From the NCBI RefSeq assembly GCF_009914755.1, contig NC_060945.1: a DNA stretch of 64,000 bases; one strand, written 5' to 3'. The stretch's first letter is position 1, and every line of letters begins with the position of its first letter. Shown here one piece after another: positions 9,300 through 64,000 of the stretch. This stretch comes from the human T2T-CHM13v2.0 reference genome, Homo sapiens. A program made the position numbers and the translations under genes. The notes under the pieces are model-generated. The model was not told where the DNA came from. It saw only the letters and a program-made list of their open reading frames with translations, and searched no databases.

Positions 9300-11000
9300 T
9301 TATTGGCTTCAGACTTTCCAGGACAGATTTCAGATTTTCAAAAGCCCCTGGAAATTGGGAAGGGAAACCCGTTAAAGGAGGTCATGTGGAGAGGGGGAGA
9401 TAAAATCTGTATATAAACTTTATGGAAATATTGATTATACTCAGAAGTAAAGACTCATGTAAAGGGCATTAAAGAGCTTAGTGGAAAATCAAAGAAGAAA
9501 AACCTAAAGTGGTGAACAAATATTTAAACTGCTGGTCAATACAGAGAAGAGAGTTTGCAGTTTGAGTCATGCCAACTGAAGCAGACTCCATAAATAACTA
9601 AGCCTTCCCATCCACACATAAGAATTGCTATATCTTAAGGTTAAATAAAACATCCAGTAGCAGAGGAATTAATCCTAAGAGTAAAACAGAATAGTGTTGT
9701 TAGAACATAGTATAAAACCAAGCCTACAAAACCTCAGTATGATCAGCTGGTAACGTATTTGCACAATCAAATGAATAAATCCTCTTCTAAAGATGTAAAC
9801 TAAACCAAAACCTATGGAAACAGACTATGCACAATATCTAGTATATTATAAAAATTAGTAGACATACCAGGAAGGAAGAAAATATGACTAACTGTCAAGA
9901 CCAAAAAACAGTCAATAAAAACAGACCCTGAGCTTGTTCAAAGGTCAAATTTAAAATAAGGTCTTAACACATTCACTTTTGACATCTTCGAGAACTTAAG
10001 GACAAAAAATATCATAATGACCAAATACATGGGTAGGTACTTCAACCTCAAAGAAGAAATTTAAAATAGAAACAAATAGATATTATAAAATTAAAAATAT
10101 TATATCTGAAAAACAAAAACAGGATGGCTTAGCCATTCACCCTGTAGATAGTTAAAAGATGTCATTTTAATTGAAGAACAACAACAAAAAAAAATGGAAA
10201 GCATAATGAGTAGGTCTTTCACTACTTGTAAGACAATGTCCAATTTTCTAATGTAAGTGTAAATGGTCCTTTAAGGAGTGGAAAAAGAGATTGTCCAGGA
10301 AAAATAGTATAGTTGAATAAAAAAATTGCAAACTGTCTAAATTTTATAACAATATTAAACCAAAAATACAAGAAGTTTGATAATTCTCAAGAAATGTATC
10401 AGAAAGTAAACAAAATAAAAAGTAGTTAGTTATATCATATTCAAATTTCTAAAAACAAAAAGAAAAGATAAAACCTGAATGTCACCAAAATAAAAATAGC
10501 AGATTACTTACAGGGGAGCAACAATATGAATTATAGCCAGTGTCTCCTCAGAAAAAATGGTGTAAGAAAACAATAGAAAAATAAGTCTCTCAACTAACAA
10601 ATATATATAGACAGAAAATATTCTTGAAACATAAATGAAAAATAGAGATTTTTTTTTTTCAAATAAAGCCAAGAGGAGACCCATACTATAGAAAATGTCA
10701 AAGGAAATCTTACATTGAGAACAAATGGCATAAGATGGGAATTAGAATGGGCATGAAGTATTGAACATGGAAAACAAAATAAAAATAGCAGAAAAGAGAA
10801 AAGGGACATATTGAATTATACTAATGCAATAACTGTTAATAAATAAATAAATAAATAATATCAAGTAGTATAGCTGAAAAGCTAATAGAGGAATCAAAAT
10901 AGAACAGTAAAATAGTTAATACACCCAAAAGAAAGAAGGAAGAAGATTTAAAAAAATTAATAAGTAGAAGACAAATAGAAAATAAATAGCAAACGGATTT
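9300..11000 (+). mobile_element. Old L1M (L1MD/ME-like) 5'/ORF1/inter-ORF relic
   Basis: A-rich, with decayed ORF1 motifs ('atcatattcaaatttctaaaaac', 'ttacaggggagcaacaatatgaattatagccagtgtctcctcagaaaaaatgg'); ends at the inter-ORF 'aataaatagcaa'; 5' boundary uncertain. Confidence 0.65.
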
Positions 11001-12882
11001 GAGAGAAGATGGCAGATAGGAGACAAAAATGACATGCAGCTCCCATCTGGATGGACAGAATAGCAAGGGGAGACTCACACTATGGACTTTTGCTCCAGGA
11101 ACCACCACAGAAGTGTACCAAGAAAACCAAAACAAATTACAATTTCTTTCAAAGAAATGGCAGCCTGCTGCAAATTCCTCAAGACAGACAAAAAACTCTG
11201 GTGCTCTCTTGAATGTGTCACCTCTTGGCTGGAGACCAGCCAACTCAGGACATTACAGCAACTCAGGACAGAACAACCATGCTCCAAGGAAGGAGAAAAC
11301 AACAGTTAATTCCACTGCCTGCAACATCCTGGCTAAACAGTTGTCCTGAGTCTGCCCATGTGACAAGTTCACTGCAAGAATAACTGGCATTCAAGAAAGC
11401 CAAAACACGAGCATATCTAAAATCAAGGACTCTCACAGAGTCTACTGCACTCCCCTGTTATCTCCAACAGAGCAGGTGCTAGTATCCATGGCTGGGAGAC
11501 CTGAAGATGGATTGCATCATAGTACTATTTGCAGACATTCCTCAGTACCAGCCCAGAGCTTTGTAGCCCCACTGGGTGGCTAAACCGAGAAGAGGAATAA
11601 TAATCATTGCAGTCTGGCTCAAAGGAAGCCCCATCCCTAGGGGAAGGGGGAGTGCATCACATCCAGGGATCACCTTGTGGGACAAAAGAATCTGGACAGC
11701 AGCCCTTGAGTTCCAGATTTTTCCACTGAAAGAGCCTATTCAAATGAGAAGGAATAAGAAAAGTAATTCTGGCAATAAGACAAAATGAGATTCTATAGCA
11801 CCCCCAAAAGACCACACTAGCTCCCCAGCAATGGATCCAAACCAAGAAGAAATCTCTTAATTACCAGATAAAGAATTCAGAAGGCTGATTATTGAGCTAC
11901 TCAAGGAGATATCAGAGAAAAGTGAGATCCAACTTAAATAAATAAAAAAAAATACAGTTGTGGATCAAAAATGCTCCAGAGAATTAGATTTAGAAAAAGC
12001 AACAATAACTTCTGGAAATGAAAGGCACATTTATAGAAGTGCATAATGCACTGAAAAGTTTCAGCGATAGAATTGAACAAGCAGAAGAAAGAACTTCAGA
12101 GCTTGAAGATAGGCTTTTGAAGTAACTCAATCAGACAAAGACAAAGAAAAAAGAATAAAAAAATGTACAAAGCCTCCAAGAAGTTTGAGATTATGTTAAA
12201 TGGCCAAACCTCAGAATAATTTGTATTCCTGAGGAAGAAGATAAATCTAAAAGTTTGGAAAATGTATTTGAGAGGCTATGAGGAAAACTGCCCTGGCCTT
12301 CCTAGAGATCTGGACATCCAAATACAAGAAGCTCAAAGAACACCTGAGAAATTCATTGCAAAAAGGTAATCACCCAGGTACACAGTCATCAAGTTACCTA
12401 AAGTCAGACAAAGGAAATAATCTTAAGAACTGTGCAGCAAAAGCATCAGGTAACCTACAAAGGAAAACCTATCATATTGACAGCAGATTTCTCAGCAGAA
12501 ACACTAGAAATGGGAAAGAACTGGGGTTCTATCTTTAGCCTCCTCGAACAAAATATTTGCCAGCCAAGAATTGTGTATCCAGCAGAACTAAGCTTCATCA
12601 GCAAAAGGGAAAAAAAGTCTTTTTCAGACAACAACAATAAAAAAAAAACACGCTGAGACAATTCACCACTACCAAGCCAGCACTACAAGAAATGCTAAAA
12701 CGTGTTCTAAATCTTGAAGGAAAACCTAGGAATTCAACAAAATAGAACTGCCTTAAACCATAAATCTCACAGGACTTATAAAACAATGACACAAAGGAAA
12801 AAAAAAAGGCATTCAGGCAACAACTAGCATGATGAATAACAATACCTCACATCTCAATACTAATGTTGAATGTAAATCACCT
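11001..12882 (+). mobile_element. L1PB-type (L1PBa-like) 5'UTR + disrupted ORF1 + first codons of ORF2; 5'UTR internally deleted, 3' end lost
   Basis: Starts 'gagagaagatggcagatagg..gcagctccca'; ORF1 start MRRNKKSNSGN at about 11744; ORF1 motif VTYKGKPIILTADFSAETL; ends at ORF2 start 'cacatctcaatactaatgttgaatgtaaat'; aligns with the element at 61050. Confidence 0.9.
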
Positions 12883-13912
12883 GATAATTTTACCAGGGAG
12901 GTATGCTACTATAAGATGTGTGTGTACCTCAAAGTAGAGCTTAACCATCATTGAGGCAAAGTAGAAACAACTAAAGGGAAAATTAGTTCACACTCATAGT
13001 TGAATATTTTACACCCAATTTTCAGTAATTGATGAAACTACTAGATACAAATATTAATAAACATATAAACTATTTAAATGACACTGTTTCTCAAATTACT
13101 TAAATTAAAATTTATGAACACTATACCCAGCTTTTCAGAATTCACATGGGAATTTCACCAAAGTAGACCAATTTTTGAGGCATATTATGACTTAATGAAT
13201 TAAAAAGAAAGAAATACTCCATACATTTTCACTGACCATGTGAAATTAATAACAACAGCAAAAAAACAATTAGAACAGATCCAAATATTTGGATATTTTA
13301 AATGACCTATGATTCAAAGAAGAAATTACAAAGGATATTAGAAAATGTGAATGAAATGAATTAACAACATATTAAAATTTATGGAATATTTCCACTGCCT
13401 TAAATATGTGGCTTTAAAGTTTTATAATATAGAATAAGAAAGGTTTAAAATCACTGAACTAAGTAAGTTTTCACCTTCAAAAACTTGAAAATGAGAAAAT
13501 TAAACATGAAGTAAGAATAAAGAAGAAAATAATAAAGAGCAGAAATCAATGAAACAAAAGTGAACTATAAGCAAAATTTATTCAAAAAACGTAAAAGCTG
13601 ATAAGGAGAATAAGGATATACAATGAAATAATAAATACCAAGAATGAAAGAGGTAGGAAGGGTAGAATTCATTCCAAAATTAAAATAATATTATTAAAAA
13701 TATGAAAAAAGTATGCTAATTCCACAACTTAGATAACATTGATTAATTACTGAAAAACAGAACATATCAAGACTATCACACAAAAAAATAGAAAATCAGA
13801 ATAAGACTATATCCATTAAAAAATTAAAATTATTTAAAAAAACATAAACAAAAACATCTCCGTAGCCACATGACATCAGATGTAATTATGTGGTTAATTT
13901 AAGAAAGTAATG
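12883..13912 (+). mobile_element. Old L1M ORF2 relic (endonuclease region onward)
   Basis: Decayed EN motifs 'catagttgaatattttacaccc', 'cacatgggaatttcaccaaagtagacc', 'ctgaccat', then 'agagcagaaatcaatgaaa'. Confidence 0.75.
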
Positions 13913-13916
13913 TTGA

Positions 13917-14151
13917 GGCTGGGCACAGTGGCTCACGCCTGTAATTCCAGCACTTTGGGAGGCTGAGGCAGTTGGATCATGAGGTCAGGAGTTTGAGACC
14001 AGCCTGACCAACATGGCAAAACCCCGTCTCTACTAAAAATACAAAAATTAGCCAGGTGTAGTGGGGGGCACCTGTAATCCCAGCTACTCAGGAGGCTGAG
14101 GCAGGAGAATCGCTTGTACCTGGGAGATGGAGGTTGCAGTGAGCCGAGATC
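13917..14151 (+). mobile_element. AluS, 3'-truncated (no tail)
   Basis: Alu consensus from 'ggctgggcacagtggctcacgcc' to 'gagccgagatc', then unrelated sequence. Confidence 0.95.
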
Positions 14152-16384
14152 CCTTCAAAGCTGTATCTACATTATTGCTTGATTGAATAACCAAGGAATG
14201 GGAATTTTGGGCTTGTGAATTATACTTTTCTAGAGAGGCATGAGGGAGCCGTGGAAAGAACTCTATTACTGGGCCTGAGGAAATCATGGAAAGGAAGTGT
14301 AAAAGGTATCATTATATCAGACAGATAGAATATTCCAAGTGTGAAAGCAGTAAAATATATCTAATAAACACAGTCTCAACAAAAAAATGCTTATAATTAG
14401 TATACCAATATCAATATATCTCACACTTTAAAAAAATACTTCTTCAGAAAACTCTAAAGAAGTTATGTATCCCATGACCTGGTAAATGATGACTCAACTA
14501 TAATAGCAATTTCTTATACTTATGTAGCATTTTATATTTTTTATATCAAATTTGGAATCGTGTAAACCTTTAAACTTTTTAAAATCTTTACAAATTTATA
14601 TATTTTTAAATTAATCCTTCCTTTGCCTTGAAAATAAGACAACCAAAGGAGATATATCTCACAACCAAGAAAAGAATAAACCACGTATTATGAGTACAAT
14701 TCAAGTTATTTAACATTAGCCAGATGTTCGCATGCGGTGTGCTAGATATATCTTCATTAAAACAAGAATATTAAGTTTTATAACATACTTCAAGCTGACC
14801 TGTGTTGTATATAACCAAAACATATAAGATGATTCAATCTTTGGAAGATATAAATGTGGATATCACAGTGAAACAAGTTAATGGACAATATCATGGGGCA
14901 AGAGGCTCTTCCAGGGTCATTCCTTCCTAACAGAAAATATTTTAAATATTTGTGTTTTAAAACTTAAACAATTTTTGGTTCTGCATTGTTTTCAAAATTG
15001 TTCTATTGATTTATGACCATTGAGATAATATTATTTCAGCTATACATTTTTTAATAACCAAAAAAACAAAACATTTAGGGGAATCCTGAATCTAGTTTGA
15101 GATTGTGGTGTAAGCACAAAAATATGAGCAGTTACTGGATGACAGAAGGGAGTTCTCTATGAAAGTATTTGGATCTTTAACTAAATGAGCTAGGATAGAC
15201 TGTTGGAGTCCTCATCTCTACTCATAATATCTGGCTACCCTGGCATTTAGCTTAGCAAGGTAAAGGCATACAAGGCTGGTAAATAAACTAGACTTGGAAG
15301 CTTGAGAAGCAAAAACAAACAAATAGGATGAAATAATTATAAAGAAAACAGTATCTCATTTCCAATGCCAACCAAGAAAAAAATTATTTAAAAAAATGGA
15401 ATGAATAAAATGTGAGAAGTTTTGACAGAATAATAAATAATTAAAATGTGGTGTATCTTCCACTCTGCACATAGTTTTTTTTGTAAAACAAGGGGAGCAG
15501 GTGGTGTGAGAGAGAATTGTGTACAGCAAGGAATAAAAGGACACCCAGCATAAGGGTTGCTTCCAGCAGATTTATACAAGAAAATAAATTGTGGAAAGAA
15601 TGTCATTATAATTGCTTAAAAATACTTTGCAATTTTGCTTTTCCATTCTCCTTTTCCTATTTCTACTGCCACCCATTTCACCTCTCATAACAACGTCTTT
15701 ACTAGCTTTTGCTTTTATTACGTGCGACATAAGCTAGGGAAGAATAGTGGAAATGACTATATGAATGAAAAAAAGACATCTATATTTTGACCAAGGGTGA
15801 CATCATTCTCCATATTCCAACTGGATATGATTCCAAAGGCAGACAGTAAAAAGAAGAAGAATGAGACTTAACCGAAGTATGAAATAAAGAGGAGATGTCA
15901 ACTGTAGTTTCTGTTCAACAAGGGCTGAAAGTAGATTCTTTTAAACAAAATGTGAGGCATTTTATCAAACAAGCCATTTCTATTTTTGACCGAACTCTAT
16001 AAATAACAATGTAAAGCAAAAGTGCTCTTTAAGTATAATGTAGTAGATTGGAAAATACTAAAAATCTAAAGGTATATTCTAAAACTACCATTATATAGAC
16101 TTACTCATATGTAGTTAATATTTTGAATTCTGCACTCTACAACTAACATTAACTTGGAAATGTTTGTATCTGTAAACCACACACTTGTTTTTAATGAGTC
16201 TAGTTTCAAAGCAAAACTGTTCTCTCTTTCAAATTATGATTTTAGGAAGTAGTGTAATTTAGTGGTGATTCTTAAAGGAGTTAAGGACAATTGAGCTTAT
16301 ACTTTAGTGTCATACCACTTACTAGCTTGGACACACATGTGCCACAGGTTTCCTATCTATAAGAGAAAGTAAGCTGGGTATATA

Positions 16385-57769: not shown

Positions 57770-60614
57770 TGATTCTTGTCAAATAAAACAAGTTTAAATA
57801 TGATTATATCATATTAAAAATTAAGTTGGCAATCAAAAGGACTAATTATAAGGAAAAAGTAATTTATTGGGAAATTACTCTCCTTTTAGTTATTTCCTGT
57901 TAGTTAAAGGAAAGTTAATAAAATAATGAATTTTTATTTTTTGAAATTGATATAAATGATGGTTCTTGATATAAATGGTGCTTATTCATAGACATGAAAA
58001 GCATCCATCCCCACATACCATAATTTACATATTAAAATCTAGAAAGCACTAGATTATATGTTGCCATGTTGAAGGAGCTTCTTTCAATTTTCTTCATTTT
58101 TAAACATATTTCCCCATTTATTGAATTTAGCATTATAGAAAATAATTTTCAAACTTGTTAGCATCAAATCCTTGGTGATTATTTTCTGAAAATCATAAAG
58201 TACATGGAGTCTGTATGAAATCTCATTGAGAGATTAAAAAAATATCGAAATGCTTAGGTGCTGTTTTACCACCTTTTCTTTCTCTTCTTACTTTTATTAC
58301 TCATCTTCAATATAAAACCCCTTGGGCTTTTAAAAACTCTTTGATGTATATATTCATCCTTGAACCCACCCCAGCAGACAATAATCTCCACTTCTCTTTA
58401 TATTGCATTCACTTTCATTCGACTATTTGATTTTCATGCTCAAATTCTCTGAAGGAAATGTTTTTTTCATATTTCATTAGGTGATATTGCATGAGTGAAT
58501 TCACATCCAACATTCCTTTTTAATTCTGAGTTTATAACATCGTAAGTGCCTAGATAATTTCCCTTTTATTATTATCTCTTAATCTCTTAAGGTATTAATT
58601 ATTTTCAAATGTCCTCTCTTCCCAGCTTTCTTAATTAGAATTTTACTGTGATTTATTTTTTAGCTTGATATTAACCTTAAATTAATTTTTTGCTATTTTT
58701 CCAAAGGAGTAAGAAGGGACATAAATATAACTTCTGAAGTCAGTAATCTTTGTTTATTACTGATATAAACAAAGAATATATCCACAAGAAAAATCTTATC
58801 TACTTATTTTTATGGTATCATGTTCAGGCCAGAGGTGAGAGCTTTTGCTCAGATAACTTGTAACTTTTCACCTTGGAGGTTTGACTCCAAGTTTTTCTCT
58901 ATTGCTGACACCTGCAGATATGAAGTATAAGCAGGACTATAAAATGGACACACACATACAAATAAATAAAAAAGATTACTTGGTATTCTGTCTGTTTCAC
59001 AAATCCAGCTTATGTGTGCCTTTCACTTTTTAGTCATTTTAAAGCTCTGTAAATTGTAGAAAATTGACAATTCAACTGATATTTATCTACGGAAACACTA
59101 AATAGTTGTGTACAATTGATTATTGCCTGTGGATAGACCAGTTTGTGCATCCATTAATAAATTAATTTTACCATTCTGGAATGCATACAAATGTGAATAT
59201 TCTAATTTTGCTTTGAACTAGTTGTAACATCTTACTGGTTTCTTTGTTAATTCATGAATAAAATACAATCACTGATGTGTTCTTTTAATATTTATGTGTG
59301 TCATGATTATGCCCTCTTTAAGAAAATTATCCTTTAAAGAAAGGCAAGGCTTCACCTTATATTAAGACAAGTCACTTTGACCTATGGAAACATGTTAGCC
59401 ATGGATGATTCATAATTTTTCCTGCAATTCAATTTCCTGTAATTCCCTTCTCCTAGTGGCCTCTACCCCTGTGCCAGAAGGTAGACAGATTTCAACTGTC
59501 CAACCATTATGAAAAGCTTCAATCACTTTTGACATTAGAGAGAGAGAGGGAGAAAGAGAAAGTGTGTGCATGTATGTGTGTGTGTTGGCATGTATCTGTG
59601 TACGTGCTTTTACTTGTTACTGAAAAGTATTAGGAGAGATGAAAGAGTATTTTACAAAAGCTACTCCAATTATACAATCTCGTAAAATTCCAGTCGATTT
59701 TACTGGTTTCTTCTAAAACGTTTATTGAAATCCTACCAAAGGAGTCATCTTTCCTTTCTGACCTCTACCGCAAAGCAATCAGTCTTGCCCAAGATTTTCT
59801 CCATTTTCCCTTCTATCTAATCCTTCAATCTTTATTATGTAACTTTCTCCTCTAGTCAAAAACTTAAAGCCAGCCCAATTTCCAAACTCTGGAGGCTTCA
59901 TGCATCCCATGGAGAGTTTGTGCAAGCATCTTCCAACAAAGATGTAGTGTTCTTCACAGAGGTAAAATTCACTAGAATGTAGTTTCCAGCAGTTAGCTTT
60001 TTACAGACTCATCCTTAGTTTTGTGTGTCATTTACTCCATTTTTCTTAGTAACAACATTTATTGCAGAAGCAACACCAATTCATGCCACTGAGCCAGGTT
60101 TGAGATAATGAGTACTTCCCCATGCAACAGAATGGTTGTCAAACTGATATTTAGCATTTCTTTTTTAATAAGGATATTTACATTGATTCTTTTTAATGAC
60201 TTAAAAAATACTTCTATTTAGTGGATGAGGAATGTCATCAAAATATCATTCTATCATCTTTCCTTTACTCTCCTGCCTCCCTCTTTCCATTAAGTCTCTA
60301 AGAGGTGTCGATTCTGGCTCTCACATATCTCACAGAAACTACTCCGTCTTTCCGTCTTCATCTGCCACTTCATGAAACCAGGCCATCTAGATTTTGCTAC
60401 CTGTCCTCCTGTATATATCTTTCCGTAGCTCTTCAGGTGCTATTGTCAATAATTTTCTGGGTTCTACTTTTCTAAAATACATAGTTCAGACTTTTTCATG
60501 TGATATATAAAGCCCTTCATGTCATCTTATTTCCATTCCTCTGTTTGTCTACCCAAATTGACTTGCTTTCTATTTCTTCAGTGTATCACAGTTAAAGTTA
60601 AAATGGAGATGGGA

Positions 60615-60845
60615 GGCTGGGCGTGGTGGCTCTCCCCTGTAATCCCAGCACTTTGGGAGGCCGAGATGGGTGGATCATCTGAGGTCGGGAGTTCGAGACC
60701 AGCCTGACCAAAATGGAGAAACCCCGTCTCTACTGAAAATACAAAATTAGCCAGGTGTGGTGGCTGCATGCCTCTAATCCCAGCTACTTAGGAAGGCTGA
60801 GGCAGGAAGAGCGAAATTCTGTCTTAAAAAAAAAAAAAAAAAAAA
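60615..60845 (+). mobile_element. AluSp-like with right-arm deletion
   Basis: 'ggtcgggagttcgagaccagcctgacc..atggagaaacccc'; about 70 nt missing after 'gaggcagga'; TSD 'gagatggga'. Confidence 0.95.
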
Positions 60846-61049
60846 GAAGAGATGGGATTAGTACTTTCTTCTGAATAGTACCTTAGAAGAAGGTACTAAT
60901 CCCATCTCCATTTTAACTTTGACCCAGAGAGGTTAAGTACCTGTCCCCAGATCACACAGGTAGAAAGAGCACCCAGTCCTAATACTTCCAACTCGTCACA
61001 ACTTTCTTCACTTTTCAAATCACTTTTACAAAGACAGACAGTGACCAGA

Positions 61050-64000
61050 GGAAAAAAATGGCAAATAGGCAGCAGAACGAACTTGCAGTTCCCACTCAGA
61101 CAAAAAGAACAGCATGTGGAGTTTCGCATTGTGAACTTTTGCTCCAAGAACTACTGCAGGAACATAACAGAAAAGCTGAGAAAATTCACAGTGCTTTTGA
61201 AAAAAGTGGCTTGCCACTGCAGTCTCCATGAGACAGCCAAAAAACTGAGTGCCCAAAGTATGAGAGGAAGAATGTCCACCCCCAAACACACATCCTCACT
61301 AGGGAAGCTGAAGGTCCAGATCACGGGAGAAAGATTTGGCCTTACCTGGAGCCAAGATGAAGTTAGAGTTGAGCAAAATACAGGGGTAGAGGAAGCAGCA
61401 GGAAGAGCCCTGTGGGCACTCTTGGTCCCCAGGGAATGCATTTCTGACTTTGCCTCCCAGGGGTCCTTGGTCAGGGCTGCCAGTTGAATTAGGGAAAGAC
61501 CACAGGGAGAAAGAAACTTTCAGCTGAATTTTGTAACAATTTTGACCAAACACGAATTTTCCTGGACAGAATCTGGGATGGGGGTGAATGGAGGGTGCAG
61601 ATACAAGCACAGAAACCATGGCAGGTGGGGAGGCGTGAAGCCTGAAATCCCTGCTTGCTTTCTCAGCAGGGAGTCTTGTAGCCTTGGGCAAGATCTCAGC
61701 CTTGCTCACTGGCTGCCTGGAAATAAACTCAGTGCTGTTAGGGGGACATGGTGGAGGTGAGACTAGCCCTTTGGGCTGCCTGAGTGCTGGGTGAGGCCTG
61801 TCACTGCTGACTTTCCCCCACTTCCCTGGCAACCTGTATGACACAGCAGAGGCAGCCATAATTCCCCTGGGAACATATTCCATCAGCCCGAGAACCACAC
61901 CCTGATGCTCCTCAGCCGCCACAGCATGCCCTGCCCAAGGAGAGTCTGAACTCAGACATGCCTAACCCTGCCCCTACCTGATGGTCTTTCTCTACCTGCC
62001 CTGATAGCTGAAGACAAAGGACATACTCTCTTGGAAGCTCTGTGGCCTCATTCACCACCTGAGAAACCTGAATACTTATCCAGGTGACCCTAAGACAAGC
62101 TTGCATCCTCCTTATACTAGGGCAGCTGATGCTCCCTTGAAAGGGCCACCTCCTGGCTTGAAGCCAACCAACACAAAACCAGTGCACTAACCAAAACTAC
62201 AACCAAGACCCTCACAGAGTCCACTTCACTCCCCTGCTACTTCCACCAGAGCAGGTGCTGCTATCCATGGCTGAGAGATCTAAACATGGATCACACCACA
62301 GGACTCTTGCAGACACTCCCAAGTACCAGAGCCTAGTAGCTCCACCAGGTGGCTAGACCCAGAAGAGCAAAAACAATCACTACAGTTCAGCTCTCAGGAA
62401 GCCCTCCCTAGTGGAAGGGTGACAGCACCACGTCAAAGGAAGACATCTTGGGACAAAAGAATCTGAACAACAGCCATTGAGCCCCAGATCTACTCTCTGA
62501 CATAGTCTACCAAAAATAGAAGGAACCAGAATAACAATTCTGGTAATATGACAAAACAAGGTTATTTAACAGCCCCAAAAGATCACACTAGCTCACCGTC
62601 AATGAATCCAAACCAAGAAGAAATTTCTAAGCTGCCAGGAAAAGAATTCAGAAGGTTGATTATTAAGCTACTCAAGGAGACATCAGAGAAAGGTGAATAC
62701 CAACTTAAAGAAATCAAAAAAAATGATACAGAAAATGATATGGATAGAAAATCTCCAGGTAAATAGACAGCATAAATTTTTAAAAAATCGCAATTTCTAG
62801 AAATAAAGGATCCACTTAGAGAACTACAAAATACACTGGAAGTCTCAGCAATAAAATTAAACAAGTGGAAGAAAGAACTTAGAGCTCAAAGACAAGTCTT
62901 TTGAATTAATCCAATCCAACAAAGATAAAGAAAAAGGAATAAAAAATGAACAAAGCCTCCAAGAAATTCGGGATTATGTTAAATGACCAAACCTAGGAAT
63001 AATTTCTGTGCCTGAGGAAGAAGAGAAAACTAGAAGTTTGGAAAACATATTTGAAAGAATAATGGAGGAAAATGTCCCTGGCCTCAATAGAGATCTAGAC
63101 ATCCAAATACAGCAAGCTCAAAGAACACCTGGGAAATTCATCACAAAAGCATCTTTGCCTAGGCACATCAGGTGATCTAAAGTCAAGATGAAAGAGAATC
63201 TTAAGAGTTGTGAGGCAAAAGCAACAGGTAATCTATAAAGGAAAACCTATCAGAATAACAGCAAATTTCTCAGCAGAAACCCTATAAGCTAGAAGGAATT
63301 GGGGTTCTATCTTTAGTCTCCTTAAACAAAACAATTATCAGCCAAGAATTTTGTATCCAGTGAAACTAAGCTTCCTAAATAAAGGAAAGATACAGTATTT
63401 TTCAGACAAACAAATGCTGAGAGAATTCACCCCTACCAAGCCAACACTACAAGAACTGTTAAAAGGAGCTCTAAATCTTTCAACAAATCTTTGAAATACA
63501 TCAAAATTGAACCTCCTTAAAGCCTACATCTCACAAGACCTATAAAATAATAACTCAAGGGGAAAAAAAAGAAGGTATTCAGGAAACAACTAGAAGAATT
63601 AATAGAATAATAACTCACTTCTCAATACTAACCTTGAATGTAAACAGCCTAAATGTTCCATTTAAAAGATACAGACTGGCAGGATGAATAAGAATTTACC
63701 AAGCAAGTTTCTGCTGTCTTTAAGAGACTCACCTAACACATAAGGACTCACATAAGGTAAAGGACTGAAAAAGATATTCCATGCAAATGCATACCAAAAG
63801 CAAGAAGGAGTAGCTATTCTTATGTCAGACAAATAAACTTTAAAGCAACAACAGTTTAAGAAAGACAAAGAGGGACACTATATAATGATAAAAGGACTAG
63901 ACTGACAGGAAAATATCATAATCTTAAATATGTATGTACCTAACACTGGAGCTCCCAAATTTATAAAACAATTACTACTAGATAGTGGGGGACTTCACTA
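61050..64000 (+). mobile_element. L1PB-type (L1PBa-like) element: full 5'UTR, disrupted ORF1, start of ORF2; runs off the window
   Basis: About 1.46-kb GC-richer 5'UTR; ORF1 MTKQGYLTAPKDHTSSPSMNPNQEEI..KEFRRLIIKLLKE (62548); EN motifs from about 63615. Confidence 0.93.

What the first reader, a model, noticed from the sequence alone, without database searches (positions are those of the whole stretch)
11001..12882. Candidate ancient spliced integrated L1 (SpIRE-like) from the L1PB lineage, with an unspliced relative in the same window
Seen: this L1PB-type 5'UTR aligns with the copy at 61050 up to 'AAAAACT' (11197, matching 61246). It then jumps to 'CTGGTGCTCTCTTGAA' (11198), which matches 'CTGATGCTCCCTTGAA' at 62126, so about 879 nt (61247-62125) are missing. 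The skipped block ends in a pyrimidine tract plus CAG ('ttgcatcctccttatactagggcag|'), a canonical acceptor. It begins 'gagtgccc' in the 61-kb copy; I recall the family consensus as 'AAAACT|GTGAGTGCCC', a canonical donor, but this needs checking. The junction keeps both CT dinucleotides (ACT+CTG), whereas a CTG-microhomology deletion would give ACTGRTG. Known: spliced integrated elements with intra-5'UTR splicing are described for young L1PA families, whose 5'UTR is different. Inference: the older L1PB 5'UTR contained a spliceable intron, and spliced RNAs were retrotransposed as promoter-crippled copies. Caveat: the two copies look like different subfamilies (the 11-kb copy has an extra block of about 150 nt after 11250).
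Basis: partly seen in the sequence, partly recalled or inferred. Interest (0 to 1): 0.8.

Follow-up and report, generated by a model that had tools for sequence, protein, structure and literature searches.

The report
Spliced ancient LINE-1 retrotransposon copy
This is a roughly 45-million-year-old LINE-1 copy made from an RNA whose 5' leader had lost an 878-base intron by splicing; it is one of about two dozen such copies in the human genome, in a LINE-1 family where spliced copies had not been described.

Summary
Copy A (11001 onward) matches copy B (61050 onward) up to 11197/61246 and resumes at 11198/62126. It lacks B's 879-base block.

Genome-wide, that block is a canonical intron in the long 5'UTR. 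It begins ACT|GTGAGT and ends in a pyrimidine tract plus CAG|, with CAG in 17 of 17 aligned long copies.

The precise exon-exon junction of copy A recurs at 22 independent loci on 13 chromosomes. Their flanks are unrelated, and five are 5'-truncated at different points. One of three copies checked has a poly(A) tail and a 19-base target-site duplication.

Short copies sit in at least two sequence backgrounds; a single origin is rejected (AU test p 0.007). Two further loci join the same donor to an upstream TAG| acceptor.

These are therefore spliced integrated retrotransposed L1s (SpIRE-like) of an old, non-L1PA family.

Overall they are about 2% of copies that keep this part of the 5'UTR. In one sub-lineage ('alpha') they are 57-68%, against 0-13% in its relatives.

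Not tested:
- whether short copies were promoter-dead or themselves active;
- the L1PB name and the Dfam consensus, which could not be checked.

The parts
11001..11197 (+). Copy A, 5'UTR 'exon 1': from the element's 5' end to the splice donor position (ends ...AAAAACT).
   Evidence: Aligns with B 61050-61246. Full-length short and long copies start at the same base.
11197..11198 (+). Exon-exon junction ACT|CTGGTG. In long relatives an intron of about 878 bases sits here.
   Evidence: The same junction is found at 22 loci. Long copies have GTGAGT...CAG at this point.
11198..11776 (+). Copy A, rest of the 5'UTR ('exon 2'). It includes the block 11248-11416, which copy B's subfamily lacks. It carries the 'alpha' marker states (A at element position 250, C at 274, T at 341).
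11777..12830 (+). Copy A, decayed ORF1. The start codon position reads AAG at 11777-11779, and many stop codons follow.
   Evidence: Pfam Tnp_22_dsRBD, E 1.2e-12 (12402-12653). Transposase_22, E 2e-4, below its cut-off (12220-12366). The start codon was placed by comparison with B's ATG at 62548.
12883..13909 (+). Copy A, probable decayed 5' part of ORF2, following an internal deletion relative to B. It ends at a truncated Alu, and the rest of the element is missing.
   Evidence: Read by eye only. Pfam found nothing in 13078-13200. The Alu at 13910-14155 matches Alu-like repeats in many loci.
61050..61246 (+). Copy B (long form, other subfamily), 5'UTR exon 1.
61247..62125 (+). Copy B, the 879-base intron retained. 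The donor is degraded (begins GAGTGCCC, GT lost). The acceptor is intact (pyrimidine tract plus CAG at 62123-62125).
   Evidence: Homologous to the insert of long copies at 65-71% identity.
62126..62547 (+). Copy B, rest of the 5'UTR (begins CTGATGCTCCC).
62548..64000 (+). Copy B, decayed ORF1 (ATG at 62548) and the start of ORF2. The element runs off the window.
   Evidence: Pfam Transposase_22, E 2.5e-12 (62987-63172). Tnp_22_dsRBD, E 2.7e-27 (63288-63491).

Best explanation
Copy A is a LINE-1 insertion made by reverse transcription of an L1 RNA whose 5'UTR had been spliced.

Shown. The unspliced 5'UTR of this family is about 1.65 kb. It contains an 878-base GT-AG intron with donor ACT|GTGAGT, a CTTAT-like branch region, and a pyrimidine tract followed by CAG|. 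Removing the intron joins element base 197 to the base after the CAG. This leaves a 776-base 5'UTR that keeps the first 197 bases and the normal start point.

Shown. The same junction arose at least twice, in different source lineages. A minor product uses the same donor with an upstream TAG| acceptor.

Inferred. In the 'alpha' sub-lineage, to which copy A belongs, more than half of the copies that reach the 5'UTR are spliced. Most simply, alpha source RNAs were spliced efficiently. A contribution from short copies acting as sources themselves is not excluded.

Inferred. Splicing removes about two thirds of the inferred CpG sites of the 5'UTR.
For: 1. Canonical signals.
- CAG| precedes exon 2 in 9 of 9 long copies and 17 of 17.
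- GTGAGT follows ACT in 10 of the 15 long rows with no mismatch, and in L022, L024, L028, L158, L159 and L162.

2. Recurrence.
- 22 short loci lie on 13 chromosomes with unrelated 5' flanks.
- Five are 5'-truncated, starting at element positions 96, 122, 146, 151 and 166.

3. More than one origin.
- Short copies L002 and L011 lie inside a starred set (98/97) with 12 long copies.
- The short/long label needs 5 changes on the tree, at least 2 of them forced.
- The AU test rejects a single short clade (p 0.0067, delta lnL 61).

4. Alternative acceptor.
- Two loci (L060 on C12; L164+L154 on C5) join exon 1 to the last ~117 bases of the intron.
- The junction falls just after a pyrimidine tract plus TAG| that is kept in 15 of 17 long copies.

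5. Retrotransposition hallmarks.
- Short copy L012 is 5.8 kb long. It ends in an A-rich tail and is flanked by a 19-base duplication with 16-17 matching bases, at a TT|AAAA-type site.

6. Polarity.
- The intron is present in copy B's subfamily and in 695 acceptor matches genome-wide.
- Short copies are nested among long ones, so the short form is derived.

7. Age.
- End branches have a median of 0.096 for both forms.
Against: - There is no RNA evidence and no splice-site scoring program; the call rests on motifs and on genomic copies.
- Three of the 22 short copies (L002, L019, L020) read AAAAACTGGTG. That is what a CTG-microhomology deletion would give, although a later loss of one CT would give it too.
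- A target-site duplication was found in only 1 of 3 short copies examined. L011 and L013 were inconclusive.
- Copy A itself has lost its 3' end, so its own hallmarks cannot be checked.
- L027 has a partial intron deletion whose junction is not at an AG. DNA-level deletions in this region therefore do occur.
- The long-copy counts include a few segmental or X/Y duplicates.
- The sub-lineage assignments rest on 2-4 marker sites in short fetched stretches.
Confidence: 0.85

Rival explanations
1. One DNA-level deletion, by recombination or slippage at the CT/CTG microhomology, occurred in a master element. That master then amplified, and no splicing was involved.
For: - Three short copies have the junction expected from a CTG microhomology.
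- Most short copies share one marker haplotype, 'alpha'.
- L027 and L072 show that DNA deletions happen inside this segment.
Against: - The boundaries fall exactly on GT and AG, with a pyrimidine tract.
- The junction occurs in at least two backgrounds, and a single clade is rejected.
- Two loci use the same donor with another AG acceptor.
- No substitution is private to the short copies.
Confidence: 0.07
2. The short form is simply a recognised subfamily 5' end, for example one of the Repbase/Dfam L1PB 5' consensus sequences. Nothing here would then be new, whatever its origin.
For: - Repbase lists three L1PB 5' ends: L1PBA_5, L1PBA1_5 and L1PBB_5 (passage in PMC5753468). Their sequences could not be seen.
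- The alpha group is mostly short.
Against: - Only about 22 short copies were found, against 695 acceptor matches. That is few for a library consensus.
- Alpha long copies have the same marker states as the short ones.
- Larson et al. report no spliced copies in L1PB, though they searched only with L1.3-derived probes (passages).
- This rival concerns novelty, not mechanism.
Confidence: 0.15
3. Independent post-insertion deletions removed the same segment at each locus, through a deletion hotspot.
For: None specific. Ancient repeats do accumulate deletions (L027, L072).
Against: The same base-exact junction at 18-22 loci cannot come from independent deletions. The two imprecise deletions actually seen (L027, L072) have different end points.
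Confidence: 0.02
4. The short form is ancestral, and the 878-base block was acquired later by the long form.
For: None found.
Against: - The block is present in copy B's separate subfamily and in all sampled 'beta' and intermediate copies.
- Short copies are nested within long ones on the tree.
- An acquired block would not be expected to carry GT..AG and a pyrimidine tract exactly at its ends.
Confidence: 0.01

Closest known systems
SpIREs of L1PA1-L1PA6 (SpIRE97/622, 97/790, 97/976; Larson et al. 2018, PMC5860796; passages read via find)
   Same: - An L1 RNA spliced inside its 5'UTR and then retrotransposed.
- One donor used with several acceptors.
- Copies dispersed, with L1 insertion hallmarks.
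- A similar overall share: 131 of 6,609, about 2%, in the paper. Here 12 verified short copies against 695 long acceptor matches, about 1.7%.
   Different: - A different and much older family with an unrelated 5'UTR and its own donor and acceptor.
- That paper's L1.3-derived probes found none in L1PB.
- The intron is 878 bases and the retained 5' exon is 197 bases.
- In one sub-lineage the spliced share is 57-68%, far above the maximum of 3.4% reported there.
- There is no experimental test of splicing or promoter loss here.
The 129-bp 5'UTR deletion of L1PA3/L1PA2 linked to ZNF93 evasion (as described in PMC7110667 and PMC5860796; passages)
   Same: Loss of an internal 5'UTR segment that then predominates in a sub-lineage.
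   Different: That deletion is not at splice sites, and it clearly propagated through later subfamilies. Propagation of the short form is not shown here, and no repressor binding data were examined.
A SpIRE that regained activity from a host gene promoter (RAP1GDS1 locus; bioRxiv 10.1101/2025.02.02.635956; passage)
   Same: It shows that a spliced L1 need not be dead on arrival.
   Different: That element was rescued by an external promoter. Here the short copies begin at the normal L1 start, with no upstream exon.
Processed (intronless) retrocopies of cellular genes
   Same: Intron loss through reverse transcription of a spliced RNA by the L1 machinery.
   Different: Here the template is the L1's own RNA, acting in cis.

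Membership tests
LINE-1 (L1) retrotransposon | ORF1 protein domains (Transposase_22 / Tnp_22_dsRBD) | tested here: met
   Copy A: Tnp_22_dsRBD E 1.2e-12. Copy B: Tnp_22_dsRBD E 2.7e-27 and Transposase_22 E 2.5e-12.
LINE-1 (L1) retrotransposon | Insertion hallmarks: poly(A) tail, target-site duplication, variable 5' truncation | tested here: inconclusive
   Copy A has lost its 3' end. Among short relatives, L012 has an A-rich tail and a 19-base duplication. L011 and L013 gave nothing clear. Five short copies are 5'-truncated at different points.
L1PB subfamilies (L1PBa / L1PBa1 / L1PBb 5' ends) | Best match to the Dfam/Repbase consensus of that name | not testable with these tools
No repeat library is available here. 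Only the names appear in PMC5753468. Khan et al. 2006 is not held.
SpIRE (spliced integrated retrotransposed element), as a kind | The missing segment is bounded by GT...AG, with a pyrimidine tract, in unspliced relatives | tested here: met
SpIRE (spliced integrated retrotransposed element), as a kind | A base-exact junction shared by independent insertions | tested here: met
   22 loci with unrelated flanks. At least two origins.
SpIRE (spliced integrated retrotransposed element), as a kind | The splice sites are used in L1 RNA (RT-PCR or reporter evidence) | not testable with these tools
   The family has long been inactive, and no expression data or assay were available.
SpIRE (spliced integrated retrotransposed element), as a kind | Loss of 5'UTR promoter function, so that copies are dead on arrival | not testable with these tools
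   Only indirect evidence. The splice removes 48 of 71 inferred CpG sites but keeps the first 197 bases. The short share of 57-68% in alpha fits either very efficient splicing or active short copies.
Described SpIRE classes 97/622, 97/790, 97/976 | Use of the L1PA donor G98U99 and detection by L1.3 junction probes | not tested
   L1PA sequence was not compared here. The paper states that its probes found none in L1PB.

The most novel reading that the evidence does not exclude
The spliced short-UTR element was not dead on arrival. It kept the first 197 bases with the normal start site and lost an 878-base CpG-rich segment. It then acted as a source and produced most of the 'alpha' sub-lineage. 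Splicing would then be a way for L1 to remodel its 5'UTR, possibly shedding a target of host repression, rather than only a source of dead copies.
Probability: 0.3. Interest if true: 0.7.

Novelty: new member of a known kind. Interest (0 to 1): 0.5.

Why it matters
Spliced integrated L1s have been described only for L1PA1-L1PA6, and the defining study reported none in L1PB with its probes.

This finding shows that an unrelated, older 5'UTR also carried a working intron. That leader had been acquired independently by the L1 lineage. Its spliced RNAs were retrotransposed about 45 million years ago.

Conflict between L1 and the splicing machinery is therefore a recurring feature of L1 5'UTRs, not a peculiarity of the modern one.

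The jump in spliced share, from 0 of 17 checked copies to 13% and then 57-68% along one lineage, gives a natural experiment. It can address how a few substitutions change L1 splicing, or whether a spliced L1 can stay active. Either answer is testable with reporter constructs that carry only the 5'UTR.

Tried and rejected
False positives from the junction pattern searches:
- L074, L076, L077, L078, L152 and L153 have no L1 homology.
- L072 is a long copy with a deletion inside the intron that mimics AACT|CTGG.
- L087 is a long copy with CAG mutated to CAT.
- Two rows (C3:38867778 and C15:43377889) were not checked.

Other searches that led nowhere:
- The pattern for the alternative junction was noisy: 133 hits against 26 in the control. 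Most hits belong to another repeat context. L165 and L166 are not this junction.
- L027's partial intron deletion was considered as a third acceptor and rejected, because the junction is not after an AG.
- A target-site duplication search by genome-wide pattern for L012 found nothing at 1 mismatch or fewer. It succeeded only after the 3' end was fetched.
- L011 and L013 gave alignment scores no better than controls.
- A motif from copy A's 5' flank has no convincing second copy in the window (4 hits against 2.65 expected).

Analyses with a negative result:
- A search for substitutions private to short copies, which would show short-to-short descent, found none. This does not decide between the two readings.

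Resources that were not available:
- Khan et al. 2006 is not held.
- 'L1pb' in PMC8770142 means a piggyBac vector, not this family.

Full report
**What is in the window.**

Copy A starts at 11001 and copy B at 61050. Both are decayed L1 elements on the + strand. Pfam finds L1 ORF1 domains in both:
- copy A: Tnp_22_dsRBD, E 1.2e-12;
- copy B: Tnp_22_dsRBD, E 2.7e-27, and Transposase_22, E 2.5e-12.

The alignment is as follows:
- A 11001-11197 aligns with B 61050-61246 (67% over 193 bases).
- A 11198-11247 aligns with B 62126-62175.
- A 11417-12876 aligns with B 62197-63644 (76.8%).
- B 61247-62125 (879 bases) is absent from A.

The B-only block ends in a pyrimidine tract plus CAG. In B itself it begins GAGTGCCC, without GT.

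By eye, copy A continues beyond 12882 into a decayed ORF2 region. It stops at a truncated Alu at 13910-14155, and its 3' part is gone. Pfam did not confirm the ORF2 reading.

**The block is a canonical intron of the family.**

A search of the window's own assembly with A 11001-11450 scored 40 of 944 candidates. Some loci match across the junction. Others match only from base 198 onward.

In the second group, exon 1 and exon 2 are separated by about 870 bases homologous to B's block.

Acceptor:
- All 9 such loci first examined end the block with a pyrimidine tract and CAG|.
- In a later alignment of 17 long copies, CAG| is present in 17 of 17.

Donor:
- After ACT, the block begins GTGAGT in L022, L024 and L028, GTGAAT in L021 and GTAAGT in L029. 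It is degraded in L025, L026, L030 and copy B.
- An exon-1-anchored pattern gave 140 hits against 0 for the control, with 100 rows listed. Of the 15 long rows with no mismatch, 10 read GTGAGT and 12 begin GT.

Branch region:
- A CTTAT-like motif lies about 25-30 bases upstream of the CAG in most copies (read by eye).

**The junction recurs at independent loci.**

I count 22 short copies: L001 (the window copy) to L020, L023 and L041. They lie on 13 chromosomes.
- Their 5' flanks are unrelated.
- Full-length short and long copies begin at the same base.
- Five short copies are 5'-truncated, at element positions 96, 122, 146, 151 and 166.

Junction forms:
- 18 of the 22 read (N)CT|CT(N)G, as in the window.
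- L002, L019 and L020 read AAAAACTGGTG, one CT fewer.
- L011 is mutated.

L012 is 5.8 kb long. It ends in an A-rich tail and is flanked by a 19-base duplication with 16-17 matching bases. Two other short copies gave no clear duplication.

**More than one origin, and a second acceptor.**

I aligned 35 copies over 1757 columns.
- Short copies L002 and L011 fall inside a starred set (98/97) with 12 long copies.
- The other short copies sit in a star-like cluster in which long copies L021, L027 and L058 are interspersed.
- The short/long label needs 5 changes, at least 2 of them forced by starred branches. No shuffle of 500 gave as few changes (mean 11.6).
- The AU test rejects one short clade (p 0.0067, delta lnL 61).
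- I had seen the quick tree before running the test, but the group is defined by the junction, not by the tree.

Two further loci join exon 1 directly to the last ~117 bases of the intron. They are L060 on C12 and L164+L154 on C5. The join falls right after a pyrimidine tract plus TAG| that 15 of 17 long copies keep.

One donor with two acceptors, and an identical junction in different backgrounds, is what splicing predicts and what a single DNA deletion does not.

**How common the short form is.**

Matched 21-mers share the same 18 exon-2 bases and differ only in the 3 bases before them.
- The unspliced acceptor gives 695 matches, 57 of them exact, against 0 for the control.
- The spliced junction gives 20 rows. 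Of these, 12 are verified short copies, 6 are not, and 2 were not checked.
- Overall that is about 1.7%.

The share is very uneven between sub-lineages. I labelled these myself from marker sites.

A pattern lying wholly inside exon 2 gave 93 hits against 0 for the control. After the unknown rows were fetched, the 39 rows with A at position 250 split by position 341:

| Group (my labels) | Marker states | Short | Long | Partial |
|---|---|---|---|---|
| alpha | A250, T341 | 12 | 8 | 1 |
| intermediate | A250, A341 | 2 | 13 | 0 |

One short copy (L041), one long copy (L139) and the alternative-acceptor copy L060 could not be placed at position 341.

Among the other 54 rows, none coincides with a catalogued short locus. 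Of these, 17 were sequence-checked: 16 are long and 1 has a deletion inside the intron. The Fisher test of alpha against those 17 gives p 2e-4, and alpha against intermediate gives p 0.014.

A second exon-2 pattern adds the marker C274 (unknowns fetched):

| Class | Copies |
|---|---|
| Short | 13 |
| Alternative acceptor | 2 |
| Full long (L021, L156, L157) | 3 |
| Partial (L027) | 1 |
| 5'-truncated, cannot be classed | 1 |

Among exact 21-mers, all 5 short copies are alpha, while only 1 of 57 long copies is (p 9e-7).

Alpha long copies carry the same donor as the others: GTGAGT in L158, L159 and L162. No substitution is private to the short copies.

**Reading of the mechanism.**

Shown:
- a GT-AG intron in this 5'UTR;
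- precise intron loss in dispersed, independently inserted copies;
- at least two origins;
- a second acceptor.

Inferred:
- The copies come from spliced L1 RNA.

For the high share in alpha, I favour efficient splicing of alpha source RNAs. My reasons:
- The alternative product is also frequent there (2, against 3 full long copies).
- No changes specific to the short form have accumulated.

The rival is that short copies were themselves sources. They keep the first 197 bases and the normal start site. The start region looks to me like the YY1-type box of younger L1s; that is a recollection and was not tested.

By a rough count of CG/TG/CA columns, the inferred ancestral CpG sites are:
- exon 1: 14 in 192 columns;
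- intron: 48 in 900 columns;
- first 600 bases of exon 2: 9.

Splicing therefore removes about two thirds of the CpG-rich leader.

**Age.**

End branches have a median of 0.096 substitutions per site for both forms. With a recalled neutral rate of about 2.2e-9 per site per year, that is roughly 45 million years.

**Literature.**

Larson et al. 2018 (PMC5860796; passages read via find) searched with probes from L1.3 junctions.
- They found 131 spliced copies among 6,609 full-length L1PA1-L1PA6 elements.
- They found none in L1PA7-17, L1PB or L1MA.

Full-text searches did not turn up a paper on spliced L1PB copies. The terms were:
- SpIRE and 'spliced integrated retrotransposed';
- L1PB with UTR, L1PA and splice;
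- L1PBa, L1PBa1 and L1PBb;
- SpIREs with LINE-1.

I saw listings only, apart from the passages cited. Smit et al. 1995, Belancio et al. 2006 and Khan et al. 2006 were not seen; the last is not held.

The family name L1PB and the content of the Dfam/Repbase 5' consensus sequences could not be checked.

**Verdict.**

This is a new, older class of a known phenomenon. It has an unexpectedly high frequency in one sub-lineage, and that remains to be explained.

Noticed in passing
window 60841-60910: Just after the poly(A) of the Alu at 60610-60857 lies a near-perfect inverted repeat. Its arms are about 16 bases (GAGATGGGATTAGTAC / GTACTAATCCCATCTC) around a partly palindromic spacer of about 29 bases. 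Read by eye.
   Followed up: no
window 13910-14155: An Alu whose 3' part is cut off. L1 copy A ends exactly at its 5' edge, and the sequence after 14155 is not L1-like. This suggests a deletion or rearrangement that removed the rest of copy A.
   Followed up: partly
window 11248-11416 versus 62176-62196: A 169-base block of the 5'UTR is present in copy A's subfamily and in all its long relatives. Copy B has 21 other bases in its place. One long copy elsewhere (L123) also lacks most of the block.
   Followed up: partly
L027 (G000:C3:136062619-136065869), locus 1041-1500: A long alpha copy lacking the first ~433 bases of the intron. The junction follows an expanded run of about 18 A and is not at an AG. 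This is not explained by splicing.
   Followed up: partly
L002, L019, L020 (junction): Three short copies read AAAAACTGGTG instead of AAAAACTCTGGTG. L002 is in a different marker background from L019 and L020. This could be later loss of one CT from the CTCT created by the splice, or a different origin.
   Followed up: partly
L093/L094 (C2:110.56 and 110.85 Mb); C23/C24 pairs: Some long copies appear twice with identical strings, from a segmental duplication on chromosome 2 and from X/Y homologous regions. Genome-wide counts of long copies are therefore slightly inflated.
   Followed up: no
window 10700-11000: The A-rich sequence directly upstream of copy A looks like the 3' part of another old L1 on the + strand. 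Copy A may have inserted into or beside it.
   Followed up: no
one search hits; L165, L166: The 15 bases after the alternative acceptor (CCARTCACAAAAGAC) also occur in over 100 places in a different L1 context, near L1 3' regions. This hints that part of this 5'UTR may derive from L1 3' sequence.
   Followed up: no
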